In this document: piece after piece, positions 17,603 through 64,000 of the stretch
Position numbering within the stretch: position 1 is the first letter of the stretch
Layout of the letters: each line of letters begins with the position of its first letter
DNA from: Escherichia coli
Lineage (GTDB): Bacteria; Pseudomonadota; Gammaproteobacteria; Enterobacterales; Enterobacteriaceae
Length of the DNA: 64,000 nucleotides
Reading direction: 5' to 3' (one strand)
Assembly: GCF_030384885.1 (NCBI RefSeq)
Contig: NZ_CP128613.1
Position numbers and translations under genes: made by a program
Notes under the pieces: model-generated
The model's input: the letters and a program-made list of their open reading frames with translations, nothing else
What the model was told of the DNA's origin: nothing
Database searches by the model: none

Positions 17603-17865
17603 ATATTGTCGGATAAAATAAACGCCTCTGTCAGAAATGATGGGGGTGTTTTTATTTTGCGAGCAGCATTCCGGCATTTAAACGTGAATATAGCAGGGGA
17701 AATCAACAGTTATAGAATGGCGTCGGGTGCTTGAGGCTGTCTGGCGTTAAGCATTCGCGAGGTTCCAGATGGACAAAAGCCCCAGGCGATATATCTATCA
17801 ACCTGAGGCTCGCGTTCGAACGTAGCAATTCGGATGTTAGTCTCTTCTTTGCAGGGAGGCAAGAC

Positions 17866-18018
17866 ATGCTGACAAAATATGCCCTTGTGGCAATCATCGT
17901 ACTGTGTTGTACAGTACTGGGATTCACGCTGATGGTAGGCGACTCGTTGTGTGAGTTGAGTATCAGAGAACGTGGTATGGAGTTTAAGGCAGTTCTCGCT
18001 TACGAATCGAAGAAGTAG
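17866..18018 (+). CDS. Hok/Gef-family type I toxin, HokE-like small membrane peptide (50 aa)
   Basis: ATG 17866 after GGGAGG; peptide [50 protein letters not shown] has one TM helix and the conserved Hok C-terminal pattern; 8-bp stem-loop 18024-18045 follows the stop. Confidence 0.75.
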
Positions 18019-60071: not shown

Positions 60072-60534
60072 CGTTTTACTCTGTGTTGGCAATAGCATGA
60101 TGGGCGATGATGGCGCAGGTCCGCTGCTGGCGGAAAAGTGCGCCGCCGCGCCGAAAGGTAACTGGGTGGTGATTGACGGCGGTAGCGCACCGGAAAACGA
60201 CATTGTCGCCATCCGCGAACTGCGCCCGACGCGACTGCTGATTGTCGACGCCACGGATATGGGGCTAAACCCCGGCGAGATCCGCATCATCGACCCGGAT
60301 GACATCGCTGAGATGTTTATGATGACTACCCATAACATGCCGCTGAACTACCTTATCGACCAGTTGAAAGAAGATATTGGTGAAGTGATTTTCCTCGGTA
60401 TCCAGCCGGATATCGTCGGTTTTTACTACCCGATGACCCAGCCGATTAAAGATGCGGTAGAAACCGTTTATCAACGACTTGAAGGCTGGGAAGGGAATGG
60501 TGGATTTGCGCAGTTAGCGGTGGAAGAAGAGTAG
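60064..60534 (+). CDS. hycI: Hydrogenase 3 maturation endopeptidase HycI (156 aa)
   Basis: Synteny and sequence. Confidence 0.9.
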   Translation: MTDVLLCVGNSMMGDDGAGPLLAEKCAAAPKGNWVVIDGGSAPENDIVAIRELRPTRLLIVDATDMGLNPGEIRIIDPDDIAEMFMMTTHNMPLNYLIDQLKEDIGEVIFLGIQPDIVGFYYPMTQPIKDAVETVYQRLEGWEGNGGFAQLAVEEE

Positions 60535-60701
60535 TTCGTAGACAAACATATTCACGTTTTTGAATCTGGACGTGCTATTGTGACGTTTAGACGGGTGTTT
60601 ACATATTGTGAATACTCGTGTGATCAACTACTATAGAAAAATAAAACCGAAGGAACGGGTAGTCCAGGCTTAGTCATTCAGGCGCTGATAAGGAAGTTAA
60701 A

Positions 60702-61013
60702 ATGCACATCATTTCGAAAGCGCCATTTGAAGAGTGCGCGCGCAAATATCCTAACGACGCTCTGGCTTTACACTCATTGTATCGGGTTATTAAGGAAACG
60801 GATTTTTCTACGCCAGAAGAAATGCGAACGGCGTTTCCCAACCTCGACAATTTTAAATATCGTAACAAATGGTACGTTCTGGATGTAGGCGGGAACAATC
60901 TTAGGGTTATTGCCTACATAAACTTTGTTAATAAGCGGTTCTTTGTGAAGCACATAACGAATCATGCCGAGTATGACAAACTGACACGTTACTACAGAGA
61001 GAACAGAGAATGA
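60702..61013 (+). CDS. HigB-family (RelE/ParE superfamily) toxin, mRNA interferase-like (103 aa)
   Basis: Pattern MHIISKA...AFPNLDNFKYRNKWYVLDVGGNNLRVIA...HAEYD resembles HigB; immediately followed by an overlapping antitoxin-like gene. Confidence 0.75.
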   Translation: MHIISKAPFEECARKYPNDALALHSLYRVIKETDFSTPEEMRTAFPNLDNFKYRNKWYVLDVGGNNLRVIAYINFVNKRFFVKHITNHAEYDKLTRYYRENRE

Positions 61014-61429
61014 CTGCTAATGCTGCACGCGCTGTTAAAGCAACAAGAGAACTGGTCAATGCAGTCCCCTTTCTGGGAGGCAGTGACTCAGAAGATGATT
61101 ATCGTGAAGCACTGGAACTGGTCGAATATTTGATTGAAGAAGATGACACCAATCCACTTATCGACTTTCTGGCGAGCCGCATTGCAGAGTATGAAAACAA
61201 CCACGAAAAGTTTGCAGAGTTCGACAAAGCCGTTGCTGCAATGCCGGTTGGCGTGGCGTTACTTCGCACGTTGATTGATCAACATAATCTGACCTATGCG
61301 GATTTGAAGAACGAAATCGGCTCTAAATCCCTGGTCAGTCAGATTTTGTCTGGACAAAGATCCCTGACGATATCCCACATTAAGGCACTTTCAGCCCGAT
61401 TTGGCGTTAAGCCGGAATGGTTTCTTTGA
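61010..61429 (+). CDS. HigA-family antitoxin with C-terminal XRE-type HTH (139 aa)
   Basis: Overlaps the toxin stop by 4 bp; C-terminal GSKSLVSQILSGQRSLTISHIKALSARFGV HTH resembles HigA. Confidence 0.75.
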   Translation: MTANAARAVKATRELVNAVPFLGGSDSEDDYREALELVEYLIEEDDTNPLIDFLASRIAEYENNHEKFAEFDKAVAAMPVGVALLRTLIDQHNLTYADLKNEIGSKSLVSQILSGQRSLTISHIKALSARFGVKPEWFL

Positions 61430-61459
61430 TTTTTGACAGATGCCAAACGCCAGATTGCC

Positions 61460-61537
61460 CGATGTGCTGCGCTTATCGGGCCTACATGTCGCACGAACTA
61501 TGTAGGCCGGATAAGGCGTTCACGCCGCATCCGGCAC
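61460..61537. repeat. REP/BIME repetitive extragenic palindromes
   Basis: gctgcgcttatcgggcctaca and tgtaggccggataaggcgttcacgccgcatccggca inverted REP units. Confidence 0.75.
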
Positions 61538-61543
61538 GTTTGC

Positions 61544-64000
<2,457 letters not shown>

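What the first reader, a model, noticed from the sequence alone, without database searches (positions are those of the whole stretch)
60535..61543. HigB/HigA-like toxin-antitoxin pair between the hyc operon and ascB
Two overlapping ORFs (103 aa and 139 aa, 4-bp overlap) resemble the E. coli HigB toxin and HigA antitoxin (toxin first, antitoxin second, C-terminal HTH in the antitoxin). They sit between hycI and a REP cluster before ascB, a position where I do not recall a TA module in the K-12 reference, so this looks like a strain-variable accessory insertion.
Basis: partly seen in the sequence, partly recalled or inferred. Interest (0 to 1): 0.5.

Follow-up and report, generated by a model that had tools for sequence, protein, structure and literature searches.

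The report
HigBA-type toxin-antitoxin pair, strain-variable
The two small overlapping genes between hycI and ascB are an intact toxin-antitoxin pair of the HigB/HigA family that public databases already annotate; only about one in five E. coli strains carries it, so it is real but ordinary.

Summary
The observation and the interpretation both hold. ORFs 60702-61013 (103 aa) and 61010-61429 (139 aa) overlap by 4 bp. The first matches Pfam HigB_toxin (E 4e-23) and solved E. coli K-12 HigB (38% identity). The second matches K-12 HigA (47%) and has a C-terminal HTH. K-12 has no such genes here: 51 bp there replace 902 bp of the window. Among 5,426 complete E. coli genomes, 1,091 carry higB, 2,508 carry higA (about 1,400 are toxin-less) and 2,767 have the K-12-like empty site. 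RefSeq already names the toxin "HigB family toxin".

New details:
- The closest characterised toxin is Salmonella SehA (57% identity). All eight SehA residues needed for toxicity are conserved here. SehA is reported to inhibit RNase III rather than cut mRNA.
- Orthologues at about 75-80% identity sit in unrelated chromosomal contexts in other enterobacteria, and toxin relatives at about 76-78% on plasmids, including a plasmid that encodes phage tail proteins.
- Those orthologues have two 17-bp palindromic operators. The window keeps only one, imperfect, copy at 60597-60613.

I found no paper on this locus. Interest is low.

The parts
60537..61438 (.). Strain-variable 902-bp segment that carries the module. 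K-12 has an unrelated 51 bp here.
   Evidence: blastn of the K-12 hycI-ascB region against the window. Homology stops 2 bp after the hycI stop codon and resumes at 61439, 10 bp after the higA stop codon.
60597..60613 (+). Candidate HigA operator O1, GTTTACA-TAT-TGTGAAT. It is an imperfect copy (2 mismatches) of the family palindrome GTTTACATATTGTAAAC.
   Evidence: It is the only strongly conserved block in the alignment of 14 upstream regions. The consensus pattern matches here and nowhere else in the window, although one match in 64 kb is not significant by itself (2.4 expected). The support comes from its homologous position.
60606..60634 (+). Putative sigma-70 promoter: -35 TTGTGA (60606-60611), a 17-nt spacer, and -10 TACTAT (60629-60634). 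The -35 lies inside O1.
   Evidence: Read from the sequence and by alignment with orthologues, which have TTGTAA, 17 nt, then TATAGT. The consensus scan did not call it. This is an inference.
60635..60649 (+). Degenerate remnant of the second operator O2 (AGAAAAATAAAACCG, where orthologues have GTTCACATAATGTAAAC). It is followed by a leader about 55 nt longer than in orthologues.
   Evidence: Alignment A4. The exact O1 and O2 pair, 38 bp apart, is present in 10 non-E. coli loci and in no E. coli locus.
60690..60694 (+). Shine-Dalgarno AAGGA for higB.
   Evidence: Sequence. It is conserved between E. coli locus variants.
60702..61013 (+). higB-like toxin gene, 103 aa, intact.
   Evidence: dN/dS is 0.03-0.22 against other E. 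coli alleles. It is identical to WP_000547556.1, 'HigB family toxin'.
61010..61429 (+). higA-like antitoxin and repressor gene, 139 aa. The N-terminal domain is homologous to the toxin-binding and dimerisation part of K-12 HigA. The C-terminal part is an Xre-type HTH (residues 85-138).
   Evidence: dN/dS is 0.04-0.10. The 4-bp ATGA overlap with higB suggests translational coupling.
61455..61537 (.). Pair of REP elements (BIME-like) shared with K-12. They form the right-hand border of the variable segment and lie between the convergent higA and ascB genes.
   Evidence: Inverted repeats I1 and I3. This stretch is repeated at a median of 37 places per genome. It is homologous to the K-12 intergenic sequence.

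Best explanation
This is an intact, chromosomally fixed type II toxin-antitoxin operon of the E. coli-type HigB/HigA family (Pfam PF09907 toxin, Xre-HTH antitoxin), with the toxin gene first. The proposed mechanism is as follows. A promoter at about 60606-60634 drives a bicistronic higB-higA mRNA, and higA is translationally coupled through the ATGA overlap. A HigA dimer binds HigB through its N-terminal domain and neutralises it. Through its C-terminal HTH, HigA also binds the 17-bp palindrome O1, which overlaps the -35, and represses the operon. When HigA is depleted, free HigB arrests growth by shutting down translation. For the toxin's target I favour the mechanism reported for its nearest characterised relative, Salmonella SehA: binding RNase III and blocking rRNA maturation (about 50%). 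Ribosome-dependent A-site mRNA cleavage, as shown for K-12 HigB, comes second (about 40%), and other mechanisms or an attenuated toxin make up about 10%. The module is accessory. It came from a pool of mobile HigBA modules carried on enterobacterial plasmids and phage-like plasmids. In E. coli it occupies a hotspot between hycI and the REP pair next to ascB, and it is often reduced to an orphan antitoxin. What is shown: homology, gene intactness, gene order, population distribution and operator conservation. What is inferred: toxicity, neutralisation, autoregulation and the toxin's target. The confidence of 0.8 applies to the toxin-antitoxin identity and architecture, not to the choice of toxin target.
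For: Homology: PF09907 at E 3.8e-23 and HTH_3 at 1.5e-9; full-length matches to solved K-12 HigB and HigA; 38% and 47% identity.

Similarity to SehA: 57% identity. All eight residues whose alanine substitution abolishes SehA toxicity (Y53, D61, H88, Y91, K93, T95, Y97, Y98; PMC12817084) are conserved here, against only 4 of 8 in K-12 HigB.

Selection: dN/dS is 0.03-0.22 for higB and 0.04-0.10 for higA.

Operator: one block is invariant across 14 upstream regions. In 10 non-E. coli loci it is a perfect 7-3-7 palindrome present twice, 38 bp apart, flanking a TATAGT -10. The sehAB upstream region has two palindromes of the same shape and spacing, and SehB is reported to bind two palindromes at the -35 and -10 boxes (PMC7160566).

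Accessory status: higB is in 1,091 and higA in 2,508 of 5,426 genomes, while 2,767 have the K-12-like empty site.

Mobility: toxin relatives at about 76-78% identity are on plasmids, on a plasmid that encodes phage tail and baseplate proteins, and in Cronobacter phage JK004. Orthologous pairs at about 72-82% identity lie in unrelated chromosomal contexts in Leclercia, Mangrovibacter, Kluyvera, Citrobacter, Phytobacter, Yokenella and Pluralibacter.
Against: There is no experimental evidence for this locus, and I found no paper on it. The regulatory region is decayed compared with orthologues. O1 has 2 mismatches in the window, O2 is lost, and the consensus scan called no sigma-70 promoter on the + strand. 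Autoregulation, and even expression, could therefore be weak. More than half of the E. coli genomes that carry higA have lost higB, which suggests the toxin is dispensable or costly. The RNase III mechanism rests on a single study of a 57%-identical protein whose authors call the inhibition mechanism 'as-yet-unclear'. K-12 HigB, from the same Pfam family, is reported to cleave translated mRNA (as cited in PMC12817084).
Confidence: 0.8

Rival explanations
1. The toxin-antitoxin architecture is the same, but the toxin is a ribosome-dependent mRNA interferase like K-12 HigB (YgjN). It would enter the ribosomal A site and cleave translated mRNAs.
For: It belongs to the same Pfam family and aligns over its full length with K-12 HigB 5IFG_A. 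Y53, K52, K56, R68, H88, Y91 and T95 are invariant across K-12 HigB, SehA and this protein. K-12 HigB is reported to cleave ribosome-bound mRNA (cited in PMC12817084).
Against: It is only 38% identical to K-12 HigB, against 57% to SehA. It shares D61, K93, Y97 and Y98 with SehA but not with K-12 HigB, and these residues are needed for SehA toxicity. SehA showed no mRNA cleavage signature in 5'-end sequencing.
Confidence: 0.4
2. The pair is a decaying remnant. The genes are intact, but the module no longer acts as an addiction or stress module and is on its way to toxin loss. The antitoxin would be the selected part, for example as anti-addiction immunity against related HigB toxins on incoming plasmids and phage-like plasmids, or as a repressor of their promoters.
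For: About 1,417 genomes keep higA without higB, and the orphan higA genes are still under purifying selection (L003 and L004, dN/dS 0.04-0.10). The orphan forms have lost the promoter, the operator and all but about 30 bp of higB. O2 is lost and O1 is imperfect in E. coli. Toxin loss recurs in Kluyvera georgiana and Serratia sp. DD3. Related toxins (about 78% identical), with an exact O1 and O2 pair in the one plasmid locus checked (L027), circulate on enterobacterial plasmids.
Against: In this window higB is intact. It has a good ribosome-binding site, all functionally important residues are conserved, and dN/dS is 0.03-0.22. 1,091 genomes retain it. Cross-neutralisation at about 78% identity has not been tested.
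Confidence: 0.2
3. The biological role of the pair is abortive-infection phage defence, related to the PD-lambda-2 system found in the E. coli pangenome.
For: In PADLOC the toxin matches PD-Lambda-2_A (E 1.2e-15, full length) and the antitoxin matches PD-Lambda-2_B (E 2.1e-14). PD-lambda-2 protects against lambda-vir (PMC9519451).
Against: PD-lambda-2 needs three components. Its B protein is an Xre-peptidase fusion of about 400 aa and is itself the toxic part, and its C protein is required for defence. Here the second protein has 139 aa and matches only profile positions 9-115 of 402, and there is no third gene: REP elements and ascB follow. The neighbourhood (hyc and asc operons) is not a defence island.
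Confidence: 0.1

Closest known systems
Salmonella Typhimurium SehA/SehB (STM4031/STM4030.S)
   Same: The toxin gene comes first, followed by an overlapping Xre-HTH antitoxin gene. The toxin has 103 aa and is 57% identical. All eight residues required for SehA toxicity are conserved (PMC12817084). The antitoxin is 45% identical. The operator has the same shape, a 7-3-7 palindrome of the form GTTnnCA-N3-TGnnAAC. In sehAB and in orthologues of this module, two copies lie 38 bp apart.
   Different: The genomic site differs (between yiiD and fdhE in Salmonella). The operator core differs (GTTTTCA against GTTTACA). The window has only one, imperfect, operator. RNase III dependence has not been tested here.
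E. coli K-12 HigB/HigA (YgjN/YgjM; PDB 5IFG, 6KML, 5YCL)
   Same: Same Pfam toxin family (PF09907), same two-domain HigA with a C-terminal HTH, same gene order and same 4-bp overlap. The alignments cover the full length.
   Different: It is a paralogue: 38% identity for the toxin and 47% for the antitoxin. The locus differs (fadH-rlmG), as does the operator (GTTGCCA-N3-TGGCAAC). K-12 HigB lacks four of the eight SehA-critical residues that this toxin retains. The CFT073 'higBA' deletion of Norton and Mulvey (PMC3464220) targets the K-12-type locus, not this one. The knockout primer translates to the K-12 HigB peptide CYIREVMTHKEYD, and the confirmation primer matches K-12 upstream sequence.
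HigBA modules on enterobacterial plasmids and phage-like plasmids (for example Enterobacter pJBIWA008_2, Cronobacter phage JK004, many Klebsiella plasmids)
   Same: The toxins are about 76-78% identical, with the same gene order and overlap. The O1 operator is shared.
   Different: These are on mobile replicons. The plasmid locus checked (L027) has both perfect operators and a short leader. The E. coli copy is chromosomal in all 1,091 genomes and has a decayed O2.
PD-lambda-2 anti-phage system
   Same: It has a HigB-like first gene and a HigA-like HTH at the start of the second.
   Different: Here there is no peptidase domain and no third gene. In PD-lambda-2 the toxic component is B, not A.
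Proteus vulgaris Rts1 HigB/HigA (the namesake system)
   Same: Toxin-first order and the name. The toxin belongs to the RelE superfamily.
   Different: No PDB match to P. vulgaris HigB or HigA at E <= 0.01. That toxin belongs to a different Pfam family (PF05015, from my own knowledge), and its HigA has an N-terminal HTH (PMC7984235).

Membership tests
HigB toxin, E. coli type (Pfam PF09907, RelE/ParE superfamily) | Sequence match to the family profile above the curated threshold | tested here: met
   82 bits against a gathering score of 27, E 3.8e-23, covering profile positions 4-73 of 74.
HigB toxin, E. coli type (Pfam PF09907, RelE/ParE superfamily) | Full-length homology to a structurally solved member | tested here: met
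   5IFG_A at E 7.9e-22, residues 1-100 aligned to 1-100; 38% identity.
HigB toxin, E. coli type (Pfam PF09907, RelE/ParE superfamily) | Toxin gene upstream of, and overlapping, an Xre-HTH antitoxin gene | tested here: met
   60702-61013 and 61010-61429 share a 4-bp overlap. Every orthologous locus that has a full-length toxin match has the same arrangement.
HigB toxin, E. coli type (Pfam PF09907, RelE/ParE superfamily) | Growth arrest on expression, neutralised by the cognate antitoxin | not testable with these tools
   This needs an induction and rescue assay.
HigB toxin, E. coli type (Pfam PF09907, RelE/ParE superfamily) | Ribosome-dependent mRNA cleavage | not testable with these tools
   Residues shared with K-12 HigB (Y53, K52, K56, R68, H88, Y91) are present. 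The nearest characterised relative, SehA, is reported not to cleave mRNA.
HigA antitoxin, E. coli type | C-terminal Xre-type HTH plus an N-terminal toxin-binding and dimerisation domain | tested here: met
   HTH_3 at residues 85-138. Residues 9-138 align with 5IFG_B at E 2.3e-35.
HigA antitoxin, E. coli type | Palindromic operator(s) overlapping its own promoter | tested here: inconclusive
   There is one imperfect 17-bp palindrome at 60597-60613, at the position where 10 orthologous loci have a perfect one. The second operator is degenerate. Binding has not been tested.
SehAB (Salmonella HigBA-like module) | Conservation of the eight residues required for SehA toxicity | tested here: met
   Y53, D61, H88, Y91, K93, T95, Y97 and Y98 are all present.
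SehAB (Salmonella HigBA-like module) | Toxicity depends on RNase III, and the toxin binds its dsRNA-binding domain | not testable with these tools
   This needs an rnc mutant and a pull-down assay.
SehAB (Salmonella HigBA-like module) | Orthology by synteny | tested here: not met
   sehAB lies between yiiD and fdhE, next to a second toxin-antitoxin pair. This module lies between hycI and ascB. It is a homologue, not a positional orthologue.
PD-lambda-2 defence system | Second component is an Xre-peptidase fusion of about 400 aa | tested here: not met
   The 139-aa protein matches only positions 9-115 of the 402-position profile.
PD-lambda-2 defence system | Third component (related to a P4 phage antitoxin) required for defence | tested here: not met
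   No ORF follows higA. REP elements and the convergent ascB gene come next.

The most novel reading that the evidence does not exclude
This 'HigB' may not be an mRNA interferase at all. Like Salmonella SehA, it may be an RNase III inhibitor that stalls rRNA maturation. If so, about 20% of E. coli strains (including EPEC E2348/69, Nissle-derived strains and O26/O111/O145 STEC) would carry a non-nucleolytic RelE-fold toxin alongside, or instead of, the classical K-12 HigB. The antitoxin, kept without its toxin in another 26% or so of strains, might act as chromosomal immunity against the roughly 78%-identical HigB toxins of plasmids and phage-like plasmids.
Probability: 0.35. Interest if true: 0.5.

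Novelty: already known. Interest (0 to 1): 0.2.

Why it matters
As it stands, this only confirms a database annotation. The pair is one more accessory HigBA-family module at a variable chromosomal site. It has modest value in three respects. It is a natural E. coli homologue for testing whether the recently reported RNase III-inhibiting mechanism of SehA extends beyond Salmonella. The population data (20% complete pair, 26% orphan antitoxin, 51% empty site) make it a clean case for studying toxin loss and antitoxin retention. Finally, sharing an operator with plasmid-borne and phage-plasmid-borne relatives suggests testable cross-regulation or anti-addiction effects.

Tried and rejected
- NCBIfam gave no family for the toxin and only a sub-threshold chance hit for the antitoxin.
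- The sigma-70 consensus scan found no + strand promoter in 60400-61700, and only a weak terminator-like site inside the 3' end of higA. The promoter I propose comes from alignment with orthologues.
- A generic repeat search in the leader found only trivial 6-bp palindromes. The operator became visible only through comparison with other genera.
- The operator consensus with up to 3 mismatches has one match in the window against 2.4 expected by chance. The pattern count alone is therefore not evidence.
- Rfam found no RNA family in or near the locus.
- Literature searches for higB plus hycI, for the four RefSeq protein accessions, and for orphan antitoxin plus HigA found nothing on this locus.
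- I checked whether the CFT073 'higBA' knockout of Norton and Mulvey was this locus. It is not. The knockout primer translates to the K-12 HigB peptide CYIREVMTHKEYD, and the confirmation primer matches K-12 upstream sequence.
- The AIEC toxin-antitoxin survey (PMC7232551) lists no toxin at this site in strain NRG857c.
- Membership of PD-lambda-2 was considered and rejected.
- Structure prediction was not run. Identity of 38-57% over the full length to solved or characterised proteins made it unnecessary.

Full report
**Observation.** The interval 60535-61543 is exactly the gap between the hycI stop codon (60534) and the stop codon of the convergent ascB gene (61544-61546). It contains two + strand ORFs, 60702-61013 (103 aa) and 61010-61429 (139 aa), which overlap by the 4 bases ATGA. 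An AAGGA ribosome-binding site lies 7 nt before the first ATG. Downstream, 61455-61537 holds two REP-type palindromes. That stretch alone matches a median of 37 places per E. coli genome.

**Identity.**
- The first protein matches Pfam PF09907 (HigB_toxin) at 82 bits, E 3.8e-23. The second carries an Xre-type HTH (HTH_3) at residues 85-138.
- Against all PDB sequences, the only hits are E. coli/Shigella HigB (5IFG_A, 6KML, 5YCL; E about 1e-21, residues 1-100) and HigA (5IFG_B; E 2.3e-35, residues 9-138).
- Identity to K-12 HigB is 38% and to K-12 HigA 47%.
- The K-12 higBA operon lies elsewhere, between fadH and rlmG. The window's pair is therefore a paralogue, not a relocated copy.
- RefSeq already annotates identical proteins in strain 2013C-4282 as 'type II toxin-antitoxin system HigB family toxin' (WP_000547556.1) and 'helix-turn-helix domain-containing protein' (WP_000126291.1). 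In some genomes the second is named 'HigA family antitoxin'.

**Absence from K-12 and borders.** MG1655 has a 158-bp hycI-ascB gap with no gene. In a blastn comparison, homology runs to 2 bp past the hycI stop codon and resumes at window 61439, 10 bp after the higA stop codon and at the start of the REP pair. K-12 has an unrelated 51 bp where the window has 902 bp, 60537-61438. I saw no flanking direct repeats or mobility genes.

**Population structure (5,426 complete E. coli genomes).**
- higB is present in 1,091 genomes and higA in 2,508. Each is always single-copy and chromosomal. About 1,417 genomes therefore carry higA without higB.
- A K-12-type empty junction is present in 2,767 genomes.
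- The site exists in several states:
  - hycI-higBA-REP-ascB, as in the window. This 154-bp leader occurs in 192 genomes.
  - hycI, a 251-aa ORF with no Pfam match, then higBA and ascB, as in O26:H11 11368. The ORF occurs in 1,463 genomes.
  - The same arrangement without higB.
  - Forms without the asc operon, in which a DUF4259 gene follows higA. These occur with higB in E2348/69 and without it.
- In the toxin-less forms, the promoter, the operator and all but about 30 bp of higB are gone. The junctions of the two forms lie within 6 bp of each other.
- Both genes evolve under purifying selection within E. coli: dN/dS 0.03-0.22 for higB and 0.04-0.10 for higA, orphan copies included. The substitution counts are small.

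**Relatives elsewhere.**
- One scan of species-representative genomes found complete orthologous pairs (72-82% identity, same 4-bp overlap) in Leclercia, Mangrovibacter, Kluyvera, Citrobacter, Phytobacter, Yokenella and Pluralibacter. None is flanked by hycI or ascB.
- Kluyvera georgiana has only higA, and Serratia sp. DD3 has a truncated higB.
- Toxin relatives at E <= 1e-5 occur on 1,041 plasmid records, 653 of them from Klebsiella. The closest, at about 78% identity, include an 88-kb Enterobacter plasmid on which the pair sits among phage tail and baseplate genes. The 94-kb Cronobacter phage JK004 carries a toxin at 76%.
- The module therefore belongs to a mobile pool, and the E. coli copy is a chromosomally fixed member of it.

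**Operator and promoter.**
- Within the window alone nothing convincing appears.
- Aligning 14 upstream regions (three E. coli variants and eleven other loci) shows one nearly invariant block, GTT(T/C)ACATATTGT(A/G)AA.
- In ten non-E. coli loci, including the plasmid locus L027, this block is the perfect 7-3-7 palindrome GTTYACATATTGTAAAC. A second copy, GTTYACATAATGTAAAC, lies exactly 38 bp downstream. The two flank a TATAGT -10, and the second ends 18 nt before the ATG.
- sehAB in Salmonella has the same design, with GTTTTCAACTTGAAAAC and a second palindrome 38 bp downstream. SehB is reported to bind two palindromes at the -35 and -10 boxes (PMC7160566).
- K-12 higBA has GTTGCCA-N3-TGGCAAC.
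- In the window, O1 survives as GTTTACATATTGTGAAT (60597-60613) with two mismatches. One of these, T at 60613, is unique to the window among the 14 aligned sequences.
- A plausible promoter overlaps O1: TTGTGA at 60606-60611, a 17-nt spacer, and TACTAT at 60629-60634.
- O2 is degenerate at 60635-60649, and the leader is about 55 nt longer than in orthologues.
- A window-wide pattern search finds only this site, but one hit is not above chance. The evidence is positional conservation, not the count.

**Mechanism.** The architecture points to a classical autoregulated type II module. HigA would neutralise HigB through its N-terminal domain and repress the promoter through the HTH. For the toxin's target, the closest characterised relative matters.
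- The toxin is 57% identical to Salmonella SehA (STM4031), against 38% to K-12 HigB.
- A 2026 Nucleic Acids Research paper (PMC12817084; preprint 10.1101/2024.07.09.602740) reports that SehA has no endoribonuclease activity. [quoted passage not shown]
- The same paper reports that Y53, D61, H88, Y91, K93, T95, Y97 and Y98 are required for toxicity.
- All eight residues are present in the window's toxin. K-12 HigB has four of them: Y53, H88, Y91 and T95.
- K-12 HigB is reported to cleave translated mRNAs (cited).
- I therefore put about 50% on an SehA-like mechanism, about 40% on A-site mRNA cleavage and about 10% on something else or an attenuated toxin. None of this is shown for the window's proteins.

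**Other roles considered.** PADLOC matches the pair to PD-lambda-2 components A and B. That system needs an Xre-peptidase fusion of about 400 aa and a third gene, and its toxic part is B (PMC9519451). Membership is rejected. The frequent retention of orphan higA, together with the operator shared with plasmid-borne relatives, fits an anti-addiction or cross-repression role for the antitoxin. That remains speculation.

**Literature.** I found no paper on the hycI-linked locus. The 'higBA' deletion in CFT073 (PMC3464220) targets the K-12-type locus. The knockout primer JPN150 translates to the K-12 HigB peptide CYIREVMTHKEYD, and the confirmation primer JPN152 matches the K-12 higB upstream sequence. 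The AIEC survey (PMC7232551) notes orphan higA genes at other sites but lists nothing here.

**Verdict.** The feature is an ordinary, already annotated but experimentally uncharacterised HigBA-family toxin-antitoxin module at a polymorphic chromosomal hotspot. Interest is low (0.2).

Noticed in passing
window about 19680 (junction); compare L029 15051-19678: Compared with the closest genome (2013C-4282, about 99.98% identical on both sides), the window lacks about 4.6 kb of the type I-E CRISPR-Cas operon: the 3' part of cas3, casA, casB, cas7e and the 5' part of cas5e. cas1e, cas2e and the CRISPR array remain. In 2013C-4282, cas3 is itself frameshifted.
   Followed up: partly
window 17725-17881 (+): A hok/sok type I toxin-antitoxin locus lies just downstream of cysH. 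Rfam matches sok (RF01794) at 104.5 bits over the full model. A Hok/Gef CDS is annotated at the equivalent place in 2013C-4282.
   Followed up: no
L002 2087-2842, L003 2209-2964, L008 2084-2827: A 251-aa hypothetical ORF with no Pfam match sits between hycI and higB (or orphan higA) in 1,463 complete E. coli genomes. Another 829 or so genomes match only part of it. In the sampled rows this is its first approximately 160 bp, and in L004 the remnant is annotated as a 61-aa ORF. Its function and its relation to the toxin-antitoxin module are unknown.
   Followed up: partly
L003 3001-3035 and L004 3001-3030 (equivalent to window about 60975-61010): About 1,417 E. coli genomes keep higA but have lost the promoter, the operator and all but the last 30 bp or so of higB. 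Two locus types have junctions within 6 bp of each other. What transcribes the orphan higA is unclear. Read-through from the 251-aa ORF or from the hyc operon is possible.
   Followed up: partly
L004 3541-3978, L007 3820-4248: In loci like those of E2348/69 and strain S9, the asc operon is absent. higA is followed by a DUF4259 gene and then by hydN or IS elements.
   Followed up: no
L009 (JAIJJM010000690.1) and L020 (DXKH01000019.1): Contigs labelled as 'Collinsella sp.' and 'Citrobacter sp.' metagenome-assembled genomes encode higA and ascB products 98-99% identical to the window's, and L009 also the end of hycI at 96%. They are probably E. coli contigs placed in the wrong genome bins.
   Followed up: no
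H121, NZ_CP134663.1 in the plasmid collection: A 4.9-Mb E. coli record listed in the plasmid database carries the toxin at 99% identity. By its size it is a chromosome filed as a plasmid, so it is not evidence for plasmid carriage in E. coli.
   Followed up: no
L026 666-1268: In Salmonella, sehAB sits about 1.2 kb from a second, divergently oriented RelE-family/Xre-family pair (the antitoxin is STM4033; the toxin next to it carries no LT2 tag in the record), between yiiD and fdhE. The AIEC survey describes a relE-1/yiaG-1 pair at the same yiiD-fdhE site in E. coli NRG857c and CFT073.
   Followed up: no
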